In this document: positions 54,592 to 63,848 of the stretch, in pieces
Layout: the number at the start of each line of letters is the position of its first letter
How positions within the stretch are numbered: the stretch's first letter is position 1
Made by a program: the position numbers and the translations under genes
Assembly: GCF_021151785.1 (NCBI RefSeq)
Contig: NZ_JAGKWP010000001.1
Span: 337-64,336, forward strand
Reading direction: 5' to 3'
From: Flavobacterium sp.
GTDB lineage: Bacteria; Bacteroidota; Bacteroidia; Flavobacteriales; Flavobacteriaceae
DNA length: 64,000 bases
The notes under the pieces: model-generated
What the model was told of the DNA's origin: nothing
The model's database searches: none
Seen by the model: only the letters and a program-made list of their open reading frames with translations

Positions 54592-55737
54592 CTAAAAACT
54601 TTTAAAAATTCTATTCCACAAGGCTTTAATGAAAATACCTTTTGGGCATTTATTAATAACTTGTAGGTCTTCCCAAAGAGAAGTTTCTTCATCAAGAAAT
54701 TTGAAAATGAGTGCTACTTTTCCGTCATGAAACAAGGCGCTAAAAATTTGGTTTCCAACTTTATTGTTTTGGTGTAAAATATCAATAAGTAATAAATCAT
54801 AGAACCAGAATTTATTTTTGGTATGAAACTGTCTAAAATCGCTATTGCTTTTGCTAAATGTGCTAAGCTTTTTTGCTTTTTTATAGGCATTTTTAAAGGT
54901 GTAACCCGTGCTTGCTTTAGTCCATCCTCCTGCTGAGCCAATATGAATGATATTTGCTGTGTTGTGTTTCCAAAAAGGATAACAAGTCATTGGGATATTG
55001 CCTTGTTCTTTCTCAAGTATTTCGAAATGTTGTACACCTAAGTCATTTAGGTAATGTGTAATGGCTTGCTCATATTCCTCTTTAGGCAGAAGGTCTTTAG
55101 AAAACAAGGTATATTCAATAAGTGCTTCATTTTTGGTGTTAGGTAAAACATACATGAATCGGGTATTACCTTTTTGCTTAATAGAAAAATCCATAAAGGT
55201 TGGACAATTTTCTGTGAATACCGCTTCTTTCGTTTGCACTACCCATCCTATAAAATGTTGTTGAACTAAGGGGAATTTAGTTTGTGAAGCTACCCAATCG
55301 GGGTTGTAGATGCTATTAAAAACGCGATTACAAGTGTAGAGTTGTATATTAGTTTTTACCGTGCAATGGGTACCAAGTTCTGTCACATCAATTACTTTTT
55401 GATGGGCAAAGTGAACGTTTGGATGTTGTTTAGCTAGATTGTAGATGAATTGGTAAAAAGTGCTGCTTCTCAGTTTTTTATAACGGTAAGGATGAAGCAA
55501 CATTTGTTGTGTATGTGTATTGTCTTTAAACCATGCTTTTAGCCAAATCTTCTCTGATTGTTTGTCAAATAAAGAAGAAGAGTCCCAAAAACACCAGGTG
55601 CGGTCGTTGGAGTTTTTTATTTCTTGATCTAAGATAAGGATTGAGGAATCTTTAAAAAACGGGTCTTCAAGAAAATGGTAAAGAGTGAGCAGAGCAGCTA
55701 GTCCGCCTCCTGTGAATATGTAATTATAGTGTTGCAT
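54592..55737 (-). CDS. Lycopene cyclase family FAD-dependent protein
   Basis: GGGLAAL, DRTWCFW, FMDF, FMYVLP, IEYT, STGYTF. Confidence 0.85.
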   Translation of the reverse strand: MQHYNYIFTGGGLAALLTLYHFLEDPFFKDSSILILDQEIKNSNDRTWCFWDSSSLFDKQSEKIWLKAWFKDNTHTQQMLLHPYRYKKLRSSTFYQFIYNLAKQHPNVHFAHQKVIDVTELGTHCTVKTNIQLYTCNRVFNSIYNPDWVASQTKFPLVQQHFIGWVVQTKEAVFTENCPTFMDFSIKQKGNTRFMYVLPNTKNEALIEYTLFSKDLLPKEEYEQAITHYLNDLGVQHFEILEKEQGNIPMTCYPFWKHNTANIIHIGSAGGWTKASTGYTFKNAYKKAKKLSTFSKSNSDFRQFHTKNKFWFYDLLLIDILHQNNKVGNQIFSALFHDGKVALIFKFLDEETSLWEDLQVINKCPKGIFIKALWNRIFKSF

Positions 55738-55809
55738 AGCTTCTTTTTTGGTAAAATTAACCTTAAATTTATTTATGAAAAAATTAATATATAGAAAATA
55801 TTTTCTTGT

Positions 55810-55817
55810 TACCTTTG
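55810..55817 (+). promoter_or_regulatory. -7 promoter element 4 nt before the GTG of the His-rich ORF
   Basis: TACCTTTG-TATA-GTG. Confidence 0.6.
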
Positions 55818-55821
55818 TATA

Positions 55822-56205
55822 GTGAAAAAGTATATAACGCTAGCCTTTTTATGTGTGTATTTGTTTTCAATGACTGAAGTTCATCAGTTATTGAAGATGC
55901 CTTTATTGGTTGAGCATTACTTAGAACACAAACAAGAAAACAAACAATTGTCTTTGTTGAGTTTTTTTGAAATGCATTATTTGAATGGTCAACATCTTGA
56001 TTCAGATCATGATAAAGACATGCAGTTGCCCTTTAAAAATTTTCAAGACAATCATCCTAATGTTGTTTTAGCTTTACCAGAATCGGTAGAATTTATCCCT
56101 CCGTATGTATTTCCTCAAGATGTTATGGTGCTTAATTTTAATGAGCATCAAATATTTATTTCCAATTTTTTGACTTCAATTTGGCAACCGCCTAAAATAG
56201 CTTAA
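55822..56205 (+). CDS. Small His/Asp-rich protein with N-terminal hydrophobic segment and C-terminal IWQPPK; candidate regulatory leader
   Basis: 127 aa; HYLEHK...HYLNGQHLDSDHDKD; directly upstream of the heavy-metal RND gene. Confidence 0.8.
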   Translation: MKKYITLAFLCVYLFSMTEVHQLLKMPLLVEHYLEHKQENKQLSLLSFFEMHYLNGQHLDSDHDKDMQLPFKNFQDNHPNVVLALPESVEFIPPYVFPQDVMVLNFNEHQIFISNFLTSIWQPPKIA

Positions 56206-56264
56206 TTAATGTTTTTATTTTCGTCCTTTTCAAGGATGAATGACTTTCTGTATTCATTAATTAA
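56202..56264 (+). promoter_or_regulatory. Nested RNA hairpin from the leader stop codon to 12 nt before the RND start
   Basis: TTAATTAATG (56202-56211) / CATTAATTAA (56255-56264) enclosing TTCGTCCTT / AAGGATGAA (56220-56240). Confidence 0.6.
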
Positions 56265-56276
56265 AGTTCCTTATTC

Positions 56277-59200
56277 ATGTTAAATAAAATTATAGAGTTT
56301 TCTGTAAAGAATAAACTCCTTGTAGCCTTGTTCACCCTTGTTTTAATAGGATTTGGGGTATATAATGTGCAAAAATTACCTATCGATGCTGTGCCCGATA
56401 TTACCAATAATCAGGTACAAGTTATTACGGTAGCGCCTTCGTTTGGAGCCACAGATATAGAGCGATTAGTTACTTTTCCTATCGAACAAGCCAATGCTAA
56501 TATTGCTGGTTTAAAAGAGATAAGAAGTTTTTCTCGTTTTGGTTTATCTTTAGTAACTATAGTATTTGAAGACCAAGTAGATGTGTACTGGGCTCGTCAG
56601 CAGGTGGCTGAGCGATTACAAGAGGTTCAAAGCCAATTACCTCAAGGGATGGGTACGCCAGCATTGGGCCCAATTTCTACTGGACTAGGTGAAATTTATC
56701 AATATGTAGTTCGTGCTAAAAAAGGGTATGAACAAAAGTATGATGAAACTGCATTACGTACAATACAAGATTGGGTTGTTAAGCGTCAATTAGCAGGTGT
56801 GAAAGGCGTCGCTGAAGTCAGTAGTTTTGGCGGAAAATTGCGTCAGGTTGAAATTAGTATTCAGCCCAATAAATTAAATGCTAATGGGATTACTATTACC
56901 GATGTATTTGATGCCTTAGAAAAAAACAACCAAAATACTGGAGGGGCTTACATTGAAAAAGAGGCTTCTGTTTTATTCATTCGCAGTGAAGGCTTGATTC
57001 AGAATCTGGAAGCGATTGAAAACACTCCAATCACAACAAAAGGAGGTGTACCTTTATATATTAAAGATGTTGCTGAAGTTAAAAATGGATTTGCCACCCG
57101 TTATGGTGCGATGTGTTATAATAATGAAGGAGAGGTAACAGGAGCAATTGTAATGATGTTAAAGGGCGCCAATAGTAGTGAAGTAATTAAAAATGTAAAA
57201 GAGCGTATTGAGCAGATTCAAAAAACCTTACCAGAGGGCGTGGTTATTGAGCCCTTTTTAGATCGAACCAAAATGGTAAATAATGCCATAGGTACTGTTG
57301 AGAAGAACTTAATTGAAGGAGCTTTAATTGTTATTTTTGTTTTGGTTGTTTTCTTAGGGAATTTAAGAGCAGGTTTATTAGTTGCTTCTGTTATTCCTTT
57401 GTCCATGTTGTTTGCAATCATTATGATGAATCTTTTTGGGGTGAGTGGTAACCTAATGAGTTTAGGAGCCTTAGATTTTGGATTAATTGTAGATGGAGCG
57501 GTTATTATTGTTGAAGCAGTGATTCATCAAATTTATCATCGTCATCAAAAAGAAGAATCGATTCATTTGACTAAAGATGAGGTAAATAAAGAGGTAGAGT
57601 CTTCTGCAAAAAAAATGATGAATAGTGCAGTTTTTGGACAAATCATTATTTTAATAGTCTATCTGCCTATTTTCACTTTACAAGGAATTGAAGGTAAAAT
57701 GTTTAAGCCAATGGCTCAAACGGTTGCTTTTGCCTTGGTGGGCGCTTTTATTTTATCTCTTACTTACATACCAATGATGAGTTCAATTGTGTTAAAAAAC
57801 ATAAAACACAATCCGCAACACTTTTCAGAGCGTATGATGGCCTTTTTGGAGCGTATTTACATGACTCGTTTAATTCAGGCTTTACACAATCAGAAAAAGA
57901 TTATAATTGTAACTTTTGTAGCCTTTATTGGAGCCATAGTGGTTTTGTCTCAGTTAGGAGGCGAATTTATCCCTGCTTTAGAAGAAGGTGATTTTGCAGT
58001 TGAAACCCGTGTTTTAACGGGAAGCAATTTAAATACGACAATTTCGTCTACTCAAAAAGCTGCGGGTATACTTAAGGCAAAGTTTCCTGAAGTAGAAAAA
58101 GTAGTTACTAAAATAGGAAGTGGAGAAGTGCCTACAGACCCAATGCCTATGGAAGCTGCTGACATGATGGTGATTTTAAAAGACAAAAGTGAATGGACTT
58201 CAGCATCAACTTTTAATGAGTTGTCAGATAAGATGTCCGCTGCTCTACAAGATGTACCTGGAATTACAGTTGGCTTTCAATATCCTGTTCAAATGCGTTT
58301 TAATGAGTTAATGACTGGAGCTCGTCAAGATGTAGTATGTAAAATTTATGGAGAAGATTTAGATACTTTGTCTAAATATGCTAATAAAGTCGGCAAGATC
58401 GTCAATTCTATTAAAGGAGCCAAGGATTTATATGTTGAACCTATAGGAGGGATGCCTCAAGTAGTAATTGAATACAAACGAAACCTTTTGGCACAGTACC
58501 AACTGAATGTTTCTGATGTGAATAAAGTAGTAAATGCTTCCTTTGCTGGACAAAGTGCCGGATTGTTGTTTGAGGGTGAGCGTCGTTTTGATGTTGTTGT
58601 TCGCGTGGATGCGAACCAAAAACAAAACCTACAAGATATACAGAATTTATTGATACCAACACCTAAAGGGATACAGGTGCCATTGCAAGTACTAGCCGAT
58701 GTAAACATAATTAATGGACCTAATCAAATCCAACGTGAGGATACCAAAAGAAGAATTGTAGTTGGTTTCAATGTACATGATTCGGATGTTCAAACGCTAG
58801 TAAATGAAATGAAACAAAAAGTGGAAACTCAAATTAAATTTCCTAGCGGCTATTACATTACTTATGGGGGAAGTTTTGAAAACTTAAATGCGGCCAAAGA
58901 TCGTTTGATGATTGCCGTCCCTATTTCATTACTTTTGATTTTCTTATTGCTTTATTTCGCATTTAAGTCGATCAAACAAGCTCTATTGATTTATACTGCA
59001 ATTCCACTTTCTACCATCGGAGGGATTTTATTTTTAGCTCTTAGAGGCATGCCTTTTAGTATTAGTGCAGGCGTTGGGTTCATCGCTCTATTTGGAGTAG
59101 CTGTTTTAAACGGTATTGTATTGATTGCTGAGTTTAATGCGCAAAGAAAACAAGGTATTTCCGATTTAACCGAGATTATATTAACAGGTACTAAAAACCG

Positions 59201-60608
59201 CCTTCGACCTATATTAATGACTGCTTTTGTAGCCTCTTTAGGCTTTCTGCCTATGGCTATTAGCAACGGTTCTGGGGCAGAAGTACAGCGACCATTAGCT
59301 ACAGTAGTTATTGGCGGGTTGTTAATTGCTACTTTTTTAACGTTATTTCTTTTACCTATTTTATATATGATATTTGAAAAAAAATCTATTCGTGTTTTAC
59401 CTAAAAGCGGAGTAGTGGTTTTGTTTTTCCTGTTTAGTTTTATGGGTATGGCTCAGCAAAAAATGCCCTTAGATAAGGTTATTGAACAAGGATTGAATTC
59501 TAATTTAATTCTTAAAAATGACAAACAACGAGTAGCTGCTGCCCAAGTCATGATAAAATCAGCTCAAGAAATACCAGCATTCAACTTAGTGGGTGAGTAT
59601 GGACAATTAAACAGTGCTTTTAATGATAATCGAGTTGGGATAACACAAAATATTAGTTTCCCTTTTTTAAATGCTAAAAAGAAAAATTGGTACGAAGTGC
59701 AAACAGAGTTGGCACAATTGAATTATCAATCTTCAGAACAAACCATAAAAAAAGCTATTACTCAAACTTTTTATGATTTAATTTATGCTGTGGAACGCGA
59801 AAAAGTCTTGCAACAATCGGATTCTATTTATACCCAATTTTTAGAAAAAGCCAAATTACGATTACAAGCAGGTGAAACAAACCATTTAGAAAAAAATGGG
59901 GCAGAATTAGCCTTAGCTTCTATTAAAGCTGATTTTAAAAAGAATCAAGAGATGATTTACCAACTTCAATTGCAAATGCAATATTTGTTGTCTACCACTG
60001 ATTGGGTAATGCCAGCTTATACAGATTTGAAAATTGAAGGACAAATTGCTGCTGATTTTGAAACGAATCATTTGCGTTTACAACTCATTGAAAAAGAGAA
60101 AAGAGCTAATGAAGTGGCGATACAAGTTGAAAAAGCAGCGTTATTTCCAGAAATTACCTTAGGTTATTATAGTATGACGATGCAAGGAATGGGGGCAGAT
60201 GATGTGCAATATGGAAGTGGAGTACGATTTCAGTCATTTCAATTGAATTTAGGTATTCCTGTTTTTAATGGAGCCAATAGGGCTCGAAGAGCAGCTTATA
60301 AAATTAATGGGACCATTTTAGCTAATCAATCTGAATTACAGAAAAAAGAATTAGAACAAGCTAAGTTGGCTTTTCAAAATAAACATCAAAATGATGTATT
60401 GGTTCTAAAAAATTATGAAAATCAAGTGCTTCCAGGAGCACAATCAATGATTAAAACAGCTGATAAACAACTTTTTAAAGGTGAAATTAACTTTATGGAA
60501 TGGTCGTGGATTATGCAGCAGGCATTAGCCTCAAGATTAGATTATTTAGAAAAAGTGAAGTCTTATAATGACGCTTTAATTCAGGTATTGTATCCAACTA
60601 TAAATTAA
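56277..60608 (+). CDS. CusA/CzcA-family heavy-metal RND pump fused to a TolC-like outer-membrane factor
   Basis: IDAVPDITNNQVQV, DFGLIVDGAVIIVE, RLRPILMTA, QRPLATVVIGG; ~385-aa C-terminal helical OMF-like region. Confidence 0.93.
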   Translation: MLNKIIEFSVKNKLLVALFTLVLIGFGVYNVQKLPIDAVPDITNNQVQVITVAPSFGATDIERLVTFPIEQANANIAGLKEIRSFSRFGLSLVTIVFEDQVDVYWARQQVAERLQEVQSQLPQGMGTPALGPISTGLGEIYQYVVRAKKGYEQKYDETALRTIQDWVVKRQLAGVKGVAEVSSFGGKLRQVEISIQPNKLNANGITITDVFDALEKNNQNTGGAYIEKEASVLFIRSEGLIQNLEAIENTPITTKGGVPLYIKDVAEVKNGFATRYGAMCYNNEGEVTGAIVMMLKGANSSEVIKNVKERIEQIQKTLPEGVVIEPFLDRTKMVNNAIGTVEKNLIEGALIVIFVLVVFLGNLRAGLLVASVIPLSMLFAIIMMNLFGVSGNLMSLGALDFGLIVDGAVIIVEAVIHQIYHRHQKEESIHLTKDEVNKEVESSAKKMMNSAVFGQIIILIVYLPIFTLQGIEGKMFKPMAQTVAFALVGAFILSLTYIPMMSSIVLKNIKHNPQHFSERMMAFLERIYMTRLIQALHNQKKIIIVTFVAFIGAIVVLSQLGGEFIPALEEGDFAVETRVLTGSNLNTTISSTQKAAGILKAKFPEVEKVVTKIGSGEVPTDPMPMEAADMMVILKDKSEWTSASTFNELSDKMSAALQDVPGITVGFQYPVQMRFNELMTGARQDVVCKIYGEDLDTLSKYANKVGKIVNSIKGAKDLYVEPIGGMPQVVIEYKRNLLAQYQLNVSDVNKVVNASFAGQSAGLLFEGERRFDVVVRVDANQKQNLQDIQNLLIPTPKGIQVPLQVLADVNIINGPNQIQREDTKRRIVVGFNVHDSDVQTLVNEMKQKVETQIKFPSGYYITYGGSFENLNAAKDRLMIAVPISLLLIFLLLYFAFKSIKQALLIYTAIPLSTIGGILFLALRGMPFSISAGVGFIALFGVAVLNGIVLIAEFNAQRKQGISDLTEIILTGTKNRLRPILMTAFVASLGFLPMAISNGSGAEVQRPLATVVIGGLLIATFLTLFLLPILYMIFEKKSIRVLPKSGVVVLFFLFSFMGMAQQKMPLDKVIEQGLNSNLILKNDKQRVAAAQVMIKSAQEIPAFNLVGEYGQLNSAFNDNRVGITQNISFPFLNAKKKNWYEVQTELAQLNYQSSEQTIKKAITQTFYDLIYAVEREKVLQQSDSIYTQFLEKAKLRLQAGETNHLEKNGAELALASIKADFKKNQEMIYQLQLQMQYLLSTTDWVMPAYTDLKIEGQIAADFETNHLRLQLIEKEKRANEVAIQVEKAALFPEITLGYYSMTMQGMGADDVQYGSGVRFQSFQLNLGIPVFNGANRARRAAYKINGTILANQSELQKKELEQAKLAFQNKHQNDVLVLKNYENQVLPGAQSMIKTADKQLFKGEINFMEWSWIMQQALASRLDYLEKVKSYNDALIQVLYPTIN

Positions 60609-60614
60609 AAAATA

Positions 60615-61739
60615 ATGAAAAATATATATGTTTTAGCACTTGTGCTTTTGTTTTTAGGTTGTCAGTCCAAAATAGAACCACAAACCGCTGGTAAGCAAGC
60701 GGATGAGAATCAAGTTACATTAACGAGTCAGCAATTAAAAAATGCCGATTTATCATTAGGGAATATTGAAGAACAAGCTCTTCAAAGTACTGTTAAAGTA
60801 AATGGGAAAATAACTTTATCTCCTGAGGCAGTAGCGAGTGTAAGTATGCCATTAGGAGGCTATGTGCAAGCAATTAAGGTAATGCCTGGGATGAAAGTTC
60901 AAAAAGGACAAGTATTGGCTGTTGTTGAAGATCAAGCTTTTGTTCAATTGCAACAAGATTATTTGACAACTAAACAACAATTGATTTTCGCAACCAAAGA
61001 TTATCAACGTCAAAAAGAACTCAATGCCTCACAAGCGAGTAGTGATAAAAGTTATCAATTAGCAGAGAGTGAATGGGCGAAACATAAAATCACACTCAAG
61101 GCTTTAGATGAAAAATTACGTTTAATACATATTAATCCAGCGACATTAACAGAAAATAGTATTTCTAAATCGGTTCGTATTTTGGCTCCCATTTCAGGTA
61201 TGGTTACCCAAGTTAATATAAATATAGGTAAATATATAACAGCTACTGATGCATTATTTCAATTAATGGATAACACTAGTATGTATGCACAATTACAAGT
61301 ATTTGATAAAGATGCTGCCCTTTTGCAAATAGGTCAGCCGGTAACGGTTTTTACTAATGCCCAACCTAATGTGAAGTATACTACAGCAGTTGCTTTTGTA
61401 AATAAAAATTTTGAAGCCCAATCAAATGCGATTGAAGTCTATGCAAAAATTAATAATCGTACTAATACATTGATTCCAGGAAATTATGTTAATGGCGTAA
61501 TTGAGTTAAATAATGCTCATGCTTTTGTAGTGCCAAATGATGCGGTTGTTCATTTTGAAGGTAAGGATTATGTTTTTATCCAAACAGCATCTTCGGTATT
61601 TGAAATGGTTGCAGTTCAAACAGGAATTGTTACAAAAGAGGTGATTGAAATTAGGAATTATGAAACTCTAATAGGAAAAAAAATAGTTATCAAAAATGCC
61701 TATACAGTTTTAATGGCTTTGAAAAACAAAGAAGAATAG
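60615..61739 (+). CDS. RND periplasmic adaptor (CusB/CzcB-like lipoprotein)
   Basis: Lipobox FLG-C; lipoyl-like halves VMPGMKVQKGQVL and APISGMV. Confidence 0.92.
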   Translation: MKNIYVLALVLLFLGCQSKIEPQTAGKQADENQVTLTSQQLKNADLSLGNIEEQALQSTVKVNGKITLSPEAVASVSMPLGGYVQAIKVMPGMKVQKGQVLAVVEDQAFVQLQQDYLTTKQQLIFATKDYQRQKELNASQASSDKSYQLAESEWAKHKITLKALDEKLRLIHINPATLTENSISKSVRILAPISGMVTQVNINIGKYITATDALFQLMDNTSMYAQLQVFDKDAALLQIGQPVTVFTNAQPNVKYTTAVAFVNKNFEAQSNAIEVYAKINNRTNTLIPGNYVNGVIELNNAHAFVVPNDAVVHFEGKDYVFIQTASSVFEMVAVQTGIVTKEVIEIRNYETLIGKKIVIKNAYTVLMALKNKEE

Positions 61740-61811: not shown

Positions 61812-63848
61812 TTAAATTTTGTAGCGTATTCCAAAGAATCCTCTTCTACCTTGATTAGGAGCATAGACATAACTAGGGTCAAAAGTTAAGGCATAAGGAT
61901 TGTTAGGTGTGGCTAATACATTTCCATTTGAGTCGTATTGTATATTTTGATCAAACGGGTCATTAGCTCGCGCAATAAGAAAAGGGGTGTTTTTATTTGG
62001 GGTCCAATTTAGAAGGTTTTTTATGCCACCATAGATTTCAAATCCCTCCCATTTTTTATAGCTTAATTGAATGTTTTGGATACTCCACCAAGGAGAATTT
62101 GGGCTTCTTGGGTCTAGTTGGCTCAATAAAGGCAAACGCATAGGACTGTAAGCATTGCCAGTATAATCTAAACTGATATACCAAGAAGGAATATCATAAC
62201 TCAATGTCCAATTAGCACTCCATTTTTCGGTAAGAATAGGTCGTGTTTTAATGCGATTTTCCATTTTGTAGCTCTCCATATAAGTGGTGCCAACTATTGC
62301 TTTTAATCCGAAACTAGATACGTAATCTAAATTTAAATTGATACCCTTAGTTGTGGCATATCCTTTTAGATTTTGGTAGAGAATGGAATTTGGGTTTGAG
62401 TCGTAATCTGGTAAGATTTGGTTGTAAAAATAGGTGTACCAAACTGAGGTTTCAAGAGAAAGTAAGGAATAATCTTCGAATCGAATTTTTTTCATAAAGT
62501 TTACATTGGCATTAATTGATTTTTCGGGTTTTAGATTTTCACTGATTTTTATTTCTCTAGAACCAGTTAAGGCAGCATGTTCTTCAGTAAATAAATTCAC
62601 CACACGAAAACCAGTTCCTGAATTGATGCGTATGCTATTGTTACTGTTCCATTTAAATCGATACGCTACTCGTGGGGTTTGGATCCAGCCGTGATTGTTG
62701 TTATAGTCTAATCGATAGGCAAGCATTAGCTTGTGTTTTGAATTTAATGCTATTTCATTTTGAAGAAAAATACTTCCTATTTGTAAGCGTTCTGCATCTC
62801 GTGTAGCAGGCGTGTTATCGTTGTAATATTGGTATCGATGAGCTAGTCCAATTAACAAGTCTTGATTTGAAAACACCTTGTTCCATGTTAATTGATTGAA
62901 ACTAATTCGTTGATTAGCTAAATAAAAAACATGACCATAAACTGAATTTTGTTCGTGATTAGTAAATGAAAAGGCAAAATTTATGTTTTCTTTAAAAGGT
63001 AAACTATATTTTGCAATAATTTCTTGTCTCTTAGTGTAAATACTTTCCCCATAAATTGCTGTGCCACCTCTATAAGATTTGTTCCATTGCATTTGTCCGC
63101 CCCATCTGTCTTCATAAAAAAATCGCCCTGCCAGAGTTAGCGTTTTACTACTTTTTCTAATGACATTCCATTTATTAAAAACAGAAATGCGTTCTTGTAA
63201 AGTTACATCGGTAAATCCATCATGATTGTTATCTTTAGGAGAATTATAGTTGAAATAATTTAGCCCAAGTAAGGATTGTGTTTTTTTGCCAACTTGAAAT
63301 TTATACCCTAAATCTAAGTTGTTTTCTAACCAAGAAGTAGTGAAGAAATCAGCTGATAAGAGAGGAGTGTTTTGGGGTGATTTGGTAATGATGTTTATCA
63401 ACCCTCCCACCGCTTCACTACCATACAATGTAGACGCAGGTCCTTTTATTACTTCAATTCGATCAATAAGCGCATTGGGAATCCCAGACAAACCATATAC
63501 AGTTGATAGTGCACTGACAATGGGCATCCCGTCGATTGTAACCATGGTATAAGGTCCTTCTAAACCATTGATGTGAATGTCGCCCGTATTGCAAATGTTA
63601 CAATTGAGTTGTGGACGAACCCCATTTATGTTTTGTAGTGCTTCAAACAAATTTGAAGTAGGATTCTTTCTTAAGAAGTTAGTTGTATAAATTTCAACTG
63701 GAACAGTTGTTTCGCTTCGTATTACAGGTTTTAATGTTCCAGAAATTACAATTTCATCTATGCCTTTGTCGTTTTTAGCAATGCTGTCTTTTTTTTGAGA
63801 CCAAGCAAAACTCGAAATCAAGATTGTAAAAATATATTTTTTAATCAT
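61812..63848 (-). CDS. TonB-dependent receptor, probably metal uptake
   Basis: Signal peptide, EIVISGT TonB-box-like, RIEVIKGPASTLYGSEAVGGLINIITK plug motif, C-terminal FFGIRYKI. Confidence 0.93.
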   Translation of the reverse strand: MIKKYIFTILISSFAWSQKKDSIAKNDKGIDEIVISGTLKPVIRSETTVPVEIYTTNFLRKNPTSNLFEALQNINGVRPQLNCNICNTGDIHINGLEGPYTMVTIDGMPIVSALSTVYGLSGIPNALIDRIEVIKGPASTLYGSEAVGGLINIITKSPQNTPLLSADFFTTSWLENNLDLGYKFQVGKKTQSLLGLNYFNYNSPKDNNHDGFTDVTLQERISVFNKWNVIRKSSKTLTLAGRFFYEDRWGGQMQWNKSYRGGTAIYGESIYTKRQEIIAKYSLPFKENINFAFSFTNHEQNSVYGHVFYLANQRISFNQLTWNKVFSNQDLLIGLAHRYQYYNDNTPATRDAERLQIGSIFLQNEIALNSKHKLMLAYRLDYNNNHGWIQTPRVAYRFKWNSNNSIRINSGTGFRVVNLFTEEHAALTGSREIKISENLKPEKSINANVNFMKKIRFEDYSLLSLETSVWYTYFYNQILPDYDSNPNSILYQNLKGYATTKGINLNLDYVSSFGLKAIVGTTYMESYKMENRIKTRPILTEKWSANWTLSYDIPSWYISLDYTGNAYSPMRLPLLSQLDPRSPNSPWWSIQNIQLSYKKWEGFEIYGGIKNLLNWTPNKNTPFLIARANDPFDQNIQYDSNGNVLATPNNPYALTFDPSYVYAPNQGRRGFFGIRYKI

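What the first reader, a model, noticed from the sequence alone, without database searches (positions are those of the whole stretch)
55810..56280. Candidate metal-sensing ribosome-arrest leader controlling a heavy-metal efflux operon
Seen in sequence: a promoter, then a 127-aa ORF with a signal-like N-terminus, a His/Asp cluster and I-W-Q-P-P-K-I-A-stop. An RNA hairpin follows; its 5' arm (56202-56211) includes the stop codon and its 3' arm (56255-56264) ends 12 nt before the RND ATG. Established knowledge: SecM, MifM and VemP, and the DUF2946 protein CruR with its C-terminal RAPP-like motif, control the downstream gene by export-coupled ribosome stalling; XPP motifs slow elongation. Inference: a ribosome paused at QPP (56185-56193) would cover the start of the 5' arm, open the hairpin and free the RND initiation region, with metal binding to the His cluster tuning the pause. 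This would be a Bacteroidota WQPP-type counterpart.
Basis: partly seen in the sequence, partly recalled or inferred. Interest (0 to 1): 0.75.

Follow-up and report, generated by a model that had tools for sequence, protein, structure and literature searches.

The report
Proline-stall leader gene before metal pump
A small, widely conserved Bacteroidota gene sits directly in front of a heavy-metal efflux pump gene and has the sequence design of a metal-sensing "ribosome-stalling" leader, a control device so far shown by experiment only in unrelated proteins of Proteobacteria.

Summary
ORF 55822-56205 encodes 127 aa: an export signal, a His/Asp/Glu-rich helical domain, a roughly 50-residue linker variable in sequence but fixed in length, and IWQPPK two residues before the stop.

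The family has 2,465 clusters at 50% identity, is found in at least 555 species genomes, and matches no Pfam, NCBIfam, PDB or Rfam entry. [IV][WF][QHN]PP[KR] is present in 265 of 269 members, with synonymous codon variation. In all 77 loci with enough downstream DNA, the next gene is a CzcA-type RND pump.

The stop-codon region pairs specifically with the 25 nt before the pump's ATG (own partner -8.5 versus other loci's -5.3 kcal/mol, p<=5e-5). A modelled ribosome opens this stem only once its P site reaches the first Pro codon.

A -7 promoter box 4-6 nt before the start codon predicts a leaderless mRNA.

Best reading (confidence about 0.6): a cis-acting, exported arrest leader like CutF/CruR, built from an unrelated sequence with His/Asp/Glu instead of Cys ligands. 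Stalling, metal binding and direction of control are untested. A 2023 survey listed CutF-like Bacteroidota proteins upstream of RND genes, so this is a new variant of a known kind.

The parts
55810..55817 (+). Bacteroidota sigma-A -7 promoter box TACCTTTG. The spacer TATA follows, so the predicted transcription start is at the G of the GTG start codon (55822), giving a leaderless mRNA.
   Evidence: Sequence. A box starts 12-15 nt before the start codon in 46 of 81 loci. Aligned boxes show a T-rich tract at -16..-21 and almost no G at -10/-9. Box numbering (T-12..G-5) and the 4-5 nt distance to the start site are from PMC6847099.
55822..55872 (+). Residues 1-17 of the leader ORF: an export signal (MKK, a 12-13 residue hydrophobic core, and a small residue at position 16).
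   Evidence: Codon-position pattern 0.28/0.11/0.45 shows it is translated from this start. AlphaFold predicts a helix at residues 2-17.
55873..56046 (+). Residues 18-75: the conserved helical domain carrying the candidate metal ligands H32, E35, H36, H52, D60, D62 and D66, plus the invariant LPFK (69-72).
   Evidence: Alignments A1 and A3. AlphaFold pLDDT is about 90 for residues 1-55, with helices at 26-39 and 45-54.
56047..56178 (+). Residues 76-119: a linker that varies in sequence, is conserved in length, and is predicted to be unstructured.
   Evidence: LPFK-to-PP spacing is 50-54 residues in 251 of 258 members. Substitution rates are highest here. Modelled as coil with pLDDT 64-77.
56179..56196 (+). 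I120-W-Q-P-P-K125: the candidate arrest motif. The Pro codons are at 56188-56193.
   Evidence: [IV][WF][QHN]PP[KR] occurs in 265 of 269 family proteins, with 2-5 residues after PP in 261 of them. There are 478 synonymous versus 140 non-synonymous codon differences, and all four Pro codons are used.
56199..56211 (+). P1 5' arm (AGCTTAATTAATG), covering the last sense codon, the stop codon 56203-56205, and 6 nt beyond it.
   Evidence: MFE folds. Own-versus-cross duplex tests.
56220..56240 (+). Inner hairpin P2 (TTCGTCCTT-TTC-AAGGATGAA) inside the P1 loop. Its role is unknown.
   Evidence: An inner hairpin is present in most loci.
56255..56268 (+). P1 3' arm, ending 8 nt before the czcA ATG. It occupies the -9..-22 part of the pump gene's initiation region.
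   Evidence: median gap to the ATG is 7 nt in 57 loci. Accessibility modelling.
56277..60608 (+). CzcA-type heavy-metal RND transporter fused to an OEP/TolC-like domain (1443 aa): the controlled gene.
   Evidence: PF00873 E=1.5e-279, PF02321 E=5e-19, TIGR00914 1153 bits. It is the next gene in every locus with enough DNA.
60615..61739 (+). Periplasmic adaptor (CzcB-like), the third gene of the module.
   Evidence: PF16576 and TIGR01730. Conserved in the loci.

Best explanation
The 127-aa ORF is proposed to be a cis-acting regulatory leader for the czcA(-OEP)-czcB efflux operon.

Proposed sequence of events:
1. Transcription starts at or 1 nt before the leader's own start codon, so the mRNA is leaderless (predicted).
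2. The nascent chain is targeted to the Sec translocon by its N-terminal signal (inferred).
3. The ribosome reaches W-Q-P-P with the two Pro codons in the P and A sites. By then the linker of about 50 residues fills the exit tunnel and the translocon. The conserved His/Asp/Glu domain (residues 18-72) is already on the periplasmic side (inferred from lengths).
4. Peptide-bond formation at Pro-Pro is slow, and the conserved I-W-Q context strengthens the pause (inferred, from E. coli data on PP contexts).
5. The front of a ribosome paused there covers the first bases of stem P1. P1 otherwise pairs the stop-codon region with positions about -8 to -25 upstream of the czcA ATG. The pause therefore frees the pump gene's ribosome-landing region. 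That matters in a phylum that uses no Shine-Dalgarno sequence and depends on unstructured upstream RNA (shown in silico only).
6. Binding of a divalent metal (Zn, Co, Cd or Ni, suggested by the CzcA-type pump and O/N ligands) to the exposed domain is proposed to change the pulling force or export of the chain. That would lengthen the pause and turn pump synthesis up when periplasmic metal is high (inferred by analogy with CutF).

What is shown and what is not: the conserved anatomy and its geometry are shown. Stalling, metal binding and the direction of control are not.
For: The family is real.
- A first search found 166 homologues.
- A profile search found 2,465 clusters at 50% identity, all about 125-130 aa.
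- At least 555 species genomes carry it.

The motif is selected as a peptide.
- [IV][WF][QHN]PP[KR] is present in 265 of 269 members, with 2-5 residues after PP in 261.
- It shows 478 synonymous versus 140 non-synonymous codon differences.

The linker has a fixed length of 50-54 residues but is poorly conserved and predicted to be coil. CruR shows the same kind of spacing rule (45 +/- 2 residues; PMC9426467).

Synteny is complete: a CzcA-type gene follows in all 77 loci with enough DNA, across an intergenic gap of 52-105 nt in most.

Neighbouring genes vary and no conserved regulator sits next to the module.

The hairpin is conserved with co-varying arms.
- The stop-codon window pairs with its own pre-ATG window at -8.5 kcal/mol, against -5.2 for other loci's windows (75 loci, p<1e-4).
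- The result holds for 47 de-duplicated loci (p<=5e-5).

The geometry fits a stall at PP (62 loci).
- With no ribosome, the modelled unpaired probability of czcA positions -24..-11 is 0.377.
- With the P site two codons before the first Pro it is 0.381.
- With the P site on the first Pro it is 0.566, and on the second Pro 0.606.
- For a terminating ribosome it is 0.606.
- In the clade with a 5-residue tail after PP (L003-L008), P1 still begins 8 nt after the second Pro codon starts, so it is fixed relative to PP rather than to the stop.

Precedents from the literature.
- CutF: a stall at PPP melts a stem-loop that shields cutO, and the signal peptide is needed.
- CruR: arrest was toeprinted with the two Pro codons in the P and A sites.
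- In E. coli, Q and W upstream of PP strengthen the arrest (PMC5811046).
- In Flavobacterium johnsoniae, initiation is tuned by structure between -20 and +20 (PMC6847099).
Against: - No experimental datum exists for this family: no toeprint, Ribo-seq or reporter assay.
- In the window alone the fold is not better than shuffled sequence (z = -1.5).
- The modelled gain in accessibility is moderate (0.38 to 0.57-0.61).
- A ribosome that merely terminates opens P1 equally well, so plain translational coupling explains the hairpin without any stall.
- QPP was not listed among the strongest E. coli stall triplets in the source I read. CutF's proline-rich motif did not act as a strong stalling sequence on its own in a LepB fusion.
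- The N-terminal domain is modelled with high confidence as a folded helical unit. That would also suit a stable, trans-acting protein.
- A subgroup ending in FQPPR has intergenic regions of 176-297 nt and no clear P1.
- Signal-peptide cleavage and topology could not be predicted with a dedicated tool.
Confidence: 0.6

Rival explanations
1. The small protein is a stable, trans-acting accessory of the pump. It could be a membrane-anchored or periplasmic metal-binding protein (like CusF or CzcI) or a small pump partner (like AcrZ). In this reading its flexible tail presents IWQPPK as a C-terminal docking motif. The hairpin provides only ordinary translational coupling, so that pump synthesis follows leader translation.
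For: - The N-terminal 55 residues are modelled with pLDDT about 90 as a helical unit.
- His, Asp and Glu residues are strongly conserved.
- A tail of fixed length with a conserved end is also what a tethered docking peptide would look like.
- A terminating ribosome opens P1 as well as a stalled one in the model.
- C. metallidurans CzcI, encoded upstream of czcCBA, lacks the PP motif and is regarded as a metal-sensing regulator.
Against: - Pro-Pro placed 2-5 residues before the stop is the hallmark of proven arrest leaders.
- In the clade with a longer tail, P1 begins at a fixed distance from PP rather than from the stop.
- The 52-105 nt structured gap is unlike simple coupled genes.
- There is no structural or sequence relative among solved proteins.
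- CutF, the closest analogue, is degraded after export and acts only in cis.
Confidence: 0.22
2. The leader does stall ribosomes and does control czcA through P1, but it does not sense metal. It would report on export or membrane status (Sec/YidC capacity or envelope stress), as SecM, VemP and MifM do. Alternatively it sets a constitutive expression level.
For: - The signal-like N-terminus and the C-terminal arrest-like motif match the design of monitoring substrates.
- Metal binding has not been shown.
Against: - The downstream gene is always a heavy-metal RND pump and never a Sec or YidC component.
- Three invariant or near-invariant His, three Asp and one Glu are conserved in the exported domain.
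- No separate metal regulator is conserved next to the module.
Confidence: 0.1
3. Control acts on transcription, as for CruR. A ribosome paused at PP would shield the nascent RNA from Rho, or from a terminator hairpin. P1/P2 would then be a termination or RNA-processing signal rather than a block on translation.
For: - CruR works through Rho-dependent termination across a 162-nt intergenic region.
- The FQPPR subgroup has intergenic regions of 176-297 nt without a clear P1.
Against: - Most intergenic regions are only 52-105 nt and A/T-rich, with no C-rich, G-poor tract.
- No terminator-like site was found in the window's intergenic region.
- In most loci P1 is followed by A-rich rather than U-rich sequence.
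- The 3' arm sits on the pump gene's initiation region.
Confidence: 0.06

Closest known systems
CutF of Rhodobacter capsulatus (cutFOG operon; DUF2946-like)
   Same: - A small exported protein encoded directly upstream of a metal-detoxification gene.
- An N-terminal Sec signal.
- A metal-binding motif in the exported part.
- A C-terminal proline motif a few residues before the stop.
- An intergenic stem-loop that shields the downstream initiation region and is opened by the paused ribosome.
   Different: - No detectable sequence relation.
- Ligands are His/Asp/Glu rather than CxxxC.
- The motif is WQPP(K/R) rather than PPP.
- The target is an RND pump rather than a multicopper oxidase.
- The host phylum uses no Shine-Dalgarno sequence, so the stem covers an upstream landing region rather than an SD.
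- The mRNA is predicted to be leaderless.
- Nothing has been tested experimentally here.
CruR of Bordetella pertussis (Bp2923, DUF2946)
   Same: - An upstream ORF with an export signal.
[quoted passage not shown]
- It heads a metal-homeostasis operon.
- Arrest occurs with the two Pro codons in the P and A sites.
   Different: - CruR uses CxxC and RAPP.
- It controls a TonB-dependent importer.
- It acts through Rho-dependent termination across a 162-nt G+C-rich region.
- Copper relieves its arrest.
- Its signal peptide is dispensable.
RAPP-like arrest peptides (ApdA, ApdP, the RQH family) and SecM/VemP/MifM
   Same: - A conserved C-terminal arrest motif ending in Pro-Pro or Gly-Pro.
- An N-terminal localisation signal.
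- A downstream initiation region held in a stem-loop.
   Different: - Those peptides monitor Sec or YidC, which is encoded downstream.
- Their essential residue is Arg at -3, whereas here it is Trp-Gln.
- RAPP/RGPP upstream ORFs of Cu-related genes were reported absent from Bacteroidota.
'CutF-like proteins' catalogue of Ozturk et al. 2023 (list D, 5,334 proteins, 19% from Bacteroidota)
   Same: The operational criteria are all met here:
- fewer than 150 aa;
- PP within the last 15 residues;
- a signal peptide;
- a same-strand downstream gene within 1 kb.

ACR_tran (CusA/CzcA) is one of the listed neighbour classes.
   Different: - Membership of that list rests on iterative jackhmmer homology to CutF-like seeds, which I could not test. 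The list itself (File S1) is not held.
- The paper describes His-only clusters (14 and 17) only next to HupE/UreJ genes.
- It reports no WQPP motif, no hairpin covariation and no leaderless promoter.
CzcI and SilD of Cupriavidus metallidurans pMOL30
   Same: Small signal-bearing ORFs encoded immediately upstream of HME-RND operons (czcCBA, silCBA).
   Different: - hhalign against the family profile aligns only the signal peptide (probability 7% for CzcI and 1.5% for SilD).
- Both are Cys-containing.
- CzcI ends in RAPD... with no PP, and gives a weak DUF2946 hit (E=0.026).
- SilD carries PRPPPRP 12 residues before its end.

Membership tests
DUF2946 (PF11162; CruR/CutF family) | Match to the Pfam DUF2946 profile | tested here: not met
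   No Pfam hit at E<=1 for the window protein. None at E<=10 for 30 diverse members. As a positive control, CzcI of pMOL30 gives DUF2946 at E=0.026.
DUF2946 (PF11162; CruR/CutF family) | Conserved CxxC or CxxxC copper-binding motif | tested here: not met
   No conserved Cys column in A1 or A3. The conserved candidate ligands are H32, E35, H36, H52, D60, D62 and D66.
DUF2946 (PF11162; CruR/CutF family) | C-terminal RAPP (CruR) or PPP (CutF) motif about 3 residues before the C-terminus | tested here: inconclusive
   Pro-Pro is present at the same place (2-5 residues after PP in 261 of 265 members). The preceding residues are W/F-Q rather than R-A, and there is no third Pro.
DUF2946 (PF11162; CruR/CutF family) | Fixed spacing between the metal motif and the proline motif | tested here: met
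   LPFK-to-PP spacing is 50-54 residues in 251 of 258 members. In CruR it is 45 +/- 2.
DUF2946 (PF11162; CruR/CutF family) | N-terminal export signal | tested here: met
   M-[KR]-[KR], then 12 hydrophobic residues (mean hydropathy 2.33) and a small residue at position 16 in 135 of 140 members. This was judged by inspection only; no dedicated signal-peptide predictor was available.
'CutF-like proteins' (operational definition of PMC9973294) | [quoted passage not shown] | tested here: met
   127 aa, PP at residues 123-124 of 127, a signal-like N-terminus, and czcA 71 nt downstream.
'CutF-like proteins' (operational definition of PMC9973294) | Retrieved by iterative jackhmmer from CutF-like seeds (presence in list D) | not testable with these tools
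   The list (File S1) is not among the held supplements. hhalign to two labelled list members, CzcI and SilD, shows no relation beyond the signal peptide.
Regulatory ribosome-arrest peptides (SecM, MifM, VemP, RAPP-like) | Demonstrated elongation arrest at the motif (peptidyl-tRNA accumulation, toeprint) | not testable with these tools
   This needs in vitro translation or Ribo-seq. The metatranscriptome contigs were uninformative.
Regulatory ribosome-arrest peptides (SecM, MifM, VemP, RAPP-like) | C-terminal motif conserved at the amino-acid level, not the nucleotide level | tested here: met
   478 synonymous versus 140 non-synonymous codon differences in residues 119-125. All four Pro codons and both Gln codons are used.
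Regulatory ribosome-arrest peptides (SecM, MifM, VemP, RAPP-like) | The downstream initiation region is held in RNA structure that a ribosome at the arrest site disrupts | tested here: met
   In silico only. Own-versus-cross duplex test p<=5e-5. Accessibility steps from 0.38 to 0.57 exactly when the P site reaches the first Pro codon.
Regulatory ribosome-arrest peptides (SecM, MifM, VemP, RAPP-like) | The downstream gene encodes the Sec or YidC component being monitored | tested here: not met
   The downstream gene is a CzcA-type RND pump in every locus.
Periplasmic metallochaperones or regulators of HME-RND systems (CusF, CzcE, CzcI) | Sequence or fold similarity to a characterised member | tested here: not met
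   No Pfam or NCBIfam hit. No PDB sequence hit at E<=10. No Foldseek PDB hit at E<=10. hhalign to CzcI gives probability 7%.

The most novel reading that the evidence does not exclude
Bacteroidota would have their own, independently evolved arrest module, (I/V)(W/F)QPP(K/R). It would be built into a self-contained, transcription-factor-free sensor of periplasmic divalent metal. In this reading a leaderless mRNA encodes an exported His/Asp/Glu domain that reports metal occupancy through the Sec translocon to the ribosome. The ribosome then unmasks an SD-less initiation region of an RND efflux pump. That would extend 'transmembrane stalling' from Cys/Cu systems in Proteobacteria to N/O-ligand metals in a phylum whose translation initiation works differently.
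Probability: 0.4. Interest if true: 0.75.

Novelty: new variant of a known kind. Interest (0 to 1): 0.62.

Why it matters
Heavy-metal RND pumps are usually thought to be switched on by two-component systems or MerR/ArsR-type regulators. In at least 555 Bacteroidota species this pump module carries no conserved regulator gene. It has instead a leader gene with the anatomy of a nascent-chain sensor.

If confirmed, the finding would:
1. Show that the CutF/CruR principle has been reinvented with a different sequence, different metal ligands and a different arrest motif.
2. Provide a first natural Pro-Pro arrest context (W-Q-P-P) for Bacteroidota ribosomes.
3. Provide a case of structure-gated initiation in a phylum without Shine-Dalgarno pairing.
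4. Explain a large family of 'hypothetical proteins' (2,465 clusters at 50% identity).
5. Offer a compact metal-responsive switch for genetic tools in Flavobacteria and Chitinophagaceae.

The conserved leaderless promoter with mostly UUG or GUG start codons is also unusual and merits a test of its own.

Tried and rejected
- **Protein family libraries.** Pfam and NCBIfam scans of the leader found nothing.
- **Solved structures.** A profile search of PDB sequences and a Foldseek search of the AlphaFold model against PDB found nothing, so no known fold can be named.
- **RNA families.** Rfam found nothing in the window's intergenic region at E<=1 or in 11 long-intergenic loci at gathering scores. 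The structure is not a known riboswitch or leader.
- **Sigma-70 promoter scan.** The scan does not apply to Bacteroidota promoters, and its only + strand hit lies inside the ORF's end. I replaced it with a TAnnTTTG search.
- **Alignment-based covariation.** The MAFFT alignment of the intergenic regions (A2) does not align the 3' arm reliably because the inner region varies in length. I did not run RNAalifold or pair counts on it. I used an alignment-free test instead, comparing each locus's own partner with other loci's partners.
- **Sequencing runs.** No isolate RNA-seq holds this locus. Wastewater metatranscriptome contigs cover the region at 92-95% identity. They also cover the upstream divergent gene and carry no strand or end information, so they give no start site.
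- **Other proline-ended ORFs.** A search of the window and 80 loci for further small ORFs ending in PP plus 1-6 residues (for example before TonB-receptor genes) returned only spurious frames.
- **The published catalogue.** I tried to find the family in the CutF-like list of PMC9973294, but the list is not held.
- **Intrinsic terminator in the intergenic region.** No such site was found. In most loci P1 is followed by A-rich sequence.
- **Lipoprotein signal.** The Cys at residue 11 is not conserved and there is no lipobox.


Full report
**1. What is in the window**

ORF 55822-56205 (+ strand, GTG start) encodes 127 residues: MKKYITLAFLCVYLFSMTEVHQLLKMPLLVEHYLEHKQENKQLSLLSFFEMHYLNGQHLDSDHDKDMQLPFKNFQDNHPNVVLALPESVEFIPPYVFPQDVMVLNFNEHQIFISNFLTSIWQPPKIA. 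The next gene starts 71 nt downstream.

- The next gene (56277-60608) is a 1443-aa protein. Its first 1033 residues are a CusA/CzcA-type heavy-metal RND transporter (PF00873 E=1.5e-279; TIGR00914 1153 bits). Its C-terminal part is an OEP/TolC-like domain.
- A CzcB-like adaptor gene follows at 60615-61739.
- Upstream lies a divergent lycopene cyclase gene.
Its 5' arm is 56199-56211 (last codon, stop, and 6 more nt). An inner hairpin lies at 56220-56240. The 3' arm is 56255-56268 and ends 8 nt before the ATG.
- On this sequence alone the fold is not better than shuffles (z = -1.5). The case therefore rests on comparison with other loci.

**2. The ORF is a member of a large, unnamed protein family**

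- No Pfam or NCBIfam model matches the window protein at E<=1. No Pfam model matches 30 diverse members at E<=10.
- A word-indexed search found 166 homologues, all about 127-130 aa and all labelled 'hypothetical'. They come from Flavobacterium, Chitinophagaceae and Sphingobacteriaceae.
- A profile search of 1.84 billion cluster representatives found 2,465 clusters at E<=0.001.
- L001, an uncultured Flavobacterium MAG, is 98% identical to the window.

**3. Conservation pattern of the protein**

In a 140-sequence alignment with 29-87% identity to the window protein, the features are as follows.

- *N-terminus.* It reads M-[KR]-[KR], then 12 hydrophobic residues (mean hydropathy 2.33), with a small residue at position 16 in 135 of 140 members. 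This is a signal-peptide-like pattern.
- *Conserved domain.* Residues 18-72 are well conserved. H32 and H52 are invariant, and H36 is present in 139 of 140. E35 (127), D60 (114), D62 (134), D66 (137), T18, K25, P27 and L69-P-F-K72 are also conserved. No Cys column is conserved.
- *Linker.* Residues 76-118 vary strongly in sequence, yet the distance from LPFK to PP is 50-54 residues in 251 of 258 proteins.
- *C-terminal motif.* [IV][WF][QHN]PP[KR] is present in 265 of 269 proteins. The commonest forms are IWQPPK (186) and IWQPPR (48). Between 2 and 5 residues follow PP in 261 proteins, and exactly 3 in 196.
- *Bias check.* One of the two patterns used for the genome scan contained IWQPPK, so the loci from that scan are biased toward it. 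The IWQPPR and IFQPPR members found through the other pattern, and the two protein searches, are not.
- *Codon analysis.* The signal region is translated from the predicted start (differences per codon position 0.28/0.11/0.45). The motif is selected as a peptide: 478 synonymous against 140 non-synonymous codon differences, with all four Pro codons in use.
- *Structure model.* AlphaFold2 on the 140-sequence alignment gives mean pLDDT 79.6. Helices fall at 2-17, 20-23, 26-39 and 45-54 with pLDDT about 90. Residues 78-127 are coil with pLDDT 64-77.
- *Solved structures.* Nothing in the PDB resembles the family by sequence or by fold.

**4. Genomic context**

In every one of the 77 loci with enough downstream DNA, the next gene is a CzcA homologue at 64-99% identity. 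It is usually the same RND-OEP fusion of about 1,440-1,475 aa, followed by the adaptor gene.

The intergenic distance is 52-105 nt in most loci. It is 176-297 nt in thirteen.

The genes around the three-gene module differ from genome to genome: seryl-tRNA synthetase, a DUF3667 protein, or a TonB-dependent receptor. No regulator gene is conserved next to it.

**5. The hairpin is conserved and its arms co-vary**

Minimum-energy folds of most loci show the same design despite very different sequences. A long-range stem P1 has a 5' arm made of the last one or two codons, the stop, and the next few nucleotides. Its 3' arm lies just upstream of the czcA ATG, and the stem encloses one or two local hairpins.

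MAFFT cannot align the 3' arm, so I used an alignment-free test.

- *Method.* I computed the best duplex energy between a 24-nt window around the stop and the 36 nt before the ATG. I did this for each locus's own pair and for all cross-locus pairs.
- *Result, 75 loci.* Own pairs average -8.5 kcal/mol and cross pairs -5.2. None of 10,000 permutations reached the observed mean.
- *Controls.* Windows shifted into either coding region gave -4.4 and -6.1.
- *De-duplicated set.* After reducing to 47 loci with less than 75% identity in the 5' window, the result holds (-8.5 against -5.3, p<=5e-5). For the 37 short-intergenic representatives the mean z against dinucleotide shuffles is -1.9.
- *Position of the stem.* In the 57 loci with a duplex of -7 kcal/mol or better, the 5' arm begins 3-9 nt after the first base of the second Pro codon. 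The 3' arm ends a median of 7 nt before the ATG.
- *Anchoring to PP.* In the clade with a five-residue tail after PP (L003-L008), the arm still begins 8 nt after that base. This is 10 nt before the stop rather than 4-6, so its position follows PP and not the stop. That clade represents only one evolutionary event.
- *Known RNA families.* No Rfam family matches.

**6. Geometry of ribosome and hairpin**

I modelled a ribosome as an unpaired block from -12 to +15 around the first base of the P-site codon. I then computed the unpaired probability of czcA positions -24 to -11 in 62 loci.

| Ribosome position | Unpaired probability |
|---|---|
| No ribosome | 0.377 |
| P site ten codons before the first Pro | 0.369 |
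| P site five codons before the first Pro | 0.375 |
| P site two codons before the first Pro | 0.381 |
| P site on the first Pro | 0.566 |
| P site on the second Pro | 0.606 |
| Terminating ribosome | 0.606 |

The step on reaching the first Pro is significant (p = 2e-9). Pro-Pro therefore sits at the first position from which a ribosome opens P1.

The freed segment is where Flavobacterium mRNAs need low structure and A-rich sequence for initiation in the absence of Shine-Dalgarno pairing (PMC6847099).

The same numbers show the weakness of the argument. Termination alone opens the stem equally well, so the hairpin by itself proves coupling, not stalling.

**7. Promoter**

In 46 of 81 loci a Bacteroidota -7 box TAnnTTTG starts 12-15 nt before the leader's start codon, and at exactly 13 nt in 31 loci.

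- Aligned on the box, the sequences show a T-rich tract at -16 to -21, almost no G at -10/-9, and a purine at the predicted +1 in 36 of 45. This agrees with the refined consensus TAHHTTTG (T-12 to G-5) and the 4-5 nt distance to the start site reported for F. johnsoniae.
- The predicted 5' untranslated region is therefore 0-1 nt. In the window the box is 55810-55817 and the predicted start is the G of GTG at 55822.
- Leaderless mRNAs are about 5.5% of transcripts in F. psychrophilum.
- The leader's start codon is TTG in 45 loci, GTG in 15 and ATG in 21. That is odd for leaderless translation and I cannot explain it.

**8. How it most likely works**

Taken together, the anatomy matches the design of CutF and CruR.

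- *CutF.* It is an exported protein with a CxxxC motif and a C-terminal PPP. [quoted passage not shown] CutF acts only in cis, needs its Sec signal, and is degraded after export.
- *CruR.* It has CxxC and RAPP three residues before its end, 45 +/- 2 residues apart. It controls a TonB-dependent transporter through Rho. Its arrest was toeprinted with the two Pro codons in the P and A sites.
- *This family.* When the ribosome reaches P123/P124, about 35 residues should be in the exit tunnel and some 15-20 in the translocon. Residues 18 to about 70, the conserved His/Asp/Glu domain, would then be exposed on the periplasmic side. These tunnel and translocon lengths are my own estimates. I propose that metal occupancy of that domain modulates the release of a WQPP-dependent pause, and so the time during which P1 is open.
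- *Likely effector.* The pump is of the CzcA type. From memory, its TM4 motif DFGLIVDGAVIIVE resembles the divalent-cation HME-RND signature rather than the Cu/Ag one. I did not test this. Zn, Co, Cd or Ni are therefore the likely effectors.
- *Direction of control.* More metal giving a longer pause and more pump is inferred only from physiology and from CutF.
- *Motif context.* Q and W upstream of PP strengthen arrest in E. coli.

**9. Rivals**

- The protein may act in trans as a tethered metal-binding partner of the pump. IWQPPK would then be a docking motif and P1 a plain coupling device. The well-folded N-terminal model and the equal effect of a terminating ribosome keep this alive.
- It may stall ribosomes without sensing metal.
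- It may act on transcription, as CruR does. That is conceivable mainly for the FQPPR subgroup, which has long intergenic regions and no clear P1.

**10. Comparison with what is known**

*Membership by sequence fails.*
- There is no DUF2946 hit, whereas CzcI of pMOL30 gives a weak one (E=0.026).
- hhalign of the family profile against CzcI and SilD aligns only the signal peptide.

*The operational definition is met.*
- The family satisfies every criterion of 'CutF-like proteins' in Ozturk et al. 2023.
- That survey found 5,334 such proteins, 19% of them from Bacteroidota, with CusA/CzcA-type genes among the neighbours.
- I could not check whether this family is in their list.
- Their His-only clusters sit next to HupE/UreJ genes, not RND pumps.

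*Other literature.*
- A 2025 survey of RAPP/RGPP upstream ORFs found none upstream of Cu-related genes in Bacteroidota.
- Full-text searches for WQPP, IWQPPK and FQPPR returned nothing relevant. The same was true for arrest peptides combined with czcA in Bacteroidetes.

**11. Verdict**

This is a new variant of a known kind: a sequence-unrelated Bacteroidota counterpart of the CutF/CruR leaders, based on His/Asp/Glu ligands. It has its own arrest-like motif, a co-varying stop-codon/pre-ATG stem and a predicted leaderless mRNA.

Noticed in passing
window 55810-55824; loci L002-L078: The leader mRNA is predicted to be leaderless. The -7 box TAnnTTTG ends 4-6 nt before the start codon in 46 of 81 loci. 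Yet the start codon is TTG (45) or GTG (15) far more often than ATG (21). Leaderless translation from UUG would be unusual. A second group (L011, L028, L035, L047, L051, L060, L075, all with ATG starts) has the box 37-43 nt upstream instead.
   Followed up: partly
window 56277-60608 (junction near residues 1035-1065, about 59380-59470): The RND transporter and the outer-membrane-factor (OEP/TolC) domain are fused in one 1443-aa ORF. A hydrophobic, signal-like segment (VVVLFFLFSFMGMAQQ) lies between them. The fusion is conserved in most loci (1,439-1,489 aa), but the two parts are separate genes in some (L016, L048, L074, L076). How the OEP part reaches the outer membrane is unclear.
   Followed up: partly
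L026, L027, L040, L045, L072, L080: A subgroup ends in IFQPPR(V/I), often with only 2 residues after PP. It has intergenic regions of 176-297 nt without a clear stop-codon/pre-ATG stem, so it may use another mode of control, for example Rho-dependent termination as in CruR. In L062 the stop-codon arm pairs with the czcA start codon itself.
   Followed up: partly
window 61812-63848 (-); L081 7671-9968 (+); L083 17244-19496 (-): A TonB-dependent receptor gene lies next to or near the module in the window (convergent, just after the adaptor gene). In Flavihumibacter profundi it ends 33 nt before the leader ORF on the same strand. It is also nearby in a Flavobacterium MAG. A possible functional link (metal uptake versus efflux) was not examined.
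   Followed up: no
alignment A2 columns 17-26; window 56197-56208: The last residue of the leader is Cys in 52 of 140 members, and the DNA consensus around the stop is TTGTTAAT. This terminal Cys codon is part of the P1 5' arm, so its conservation may reflect RNA pairing rather than a protein function.
   Followed up: no
window 56098-56103 (residues P93-P94, FIPPYVF): The window protein has a second Pro-Pro in the linker. It is not conserved in the family, so it is unlikely to be part of the mechanism.
   Followed up: no
L084 25176-25523 (pMOL30 czcI); L085 20023-20418 (silD): CzcI of C. metallidurans ends ...NARAPDRPQWQRLA (RAPD instead of RAPP) and scores below threshold on DUF2946 (E=0.026). 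SilD carries PRPPPRP 12 residues before its end and matches no Pfam family.
   Followed up: partly
window 55500-57500, runs X25, X29-X31: Close relatives of this locus (92-95% identity) occur in wastewater and freshwater metagenomes and metatranscriptomes. One run's assembly breaks between 56095 and 56263, the end of the leader and the hairpin. This may reflect strain variation there.
   Followed up: no
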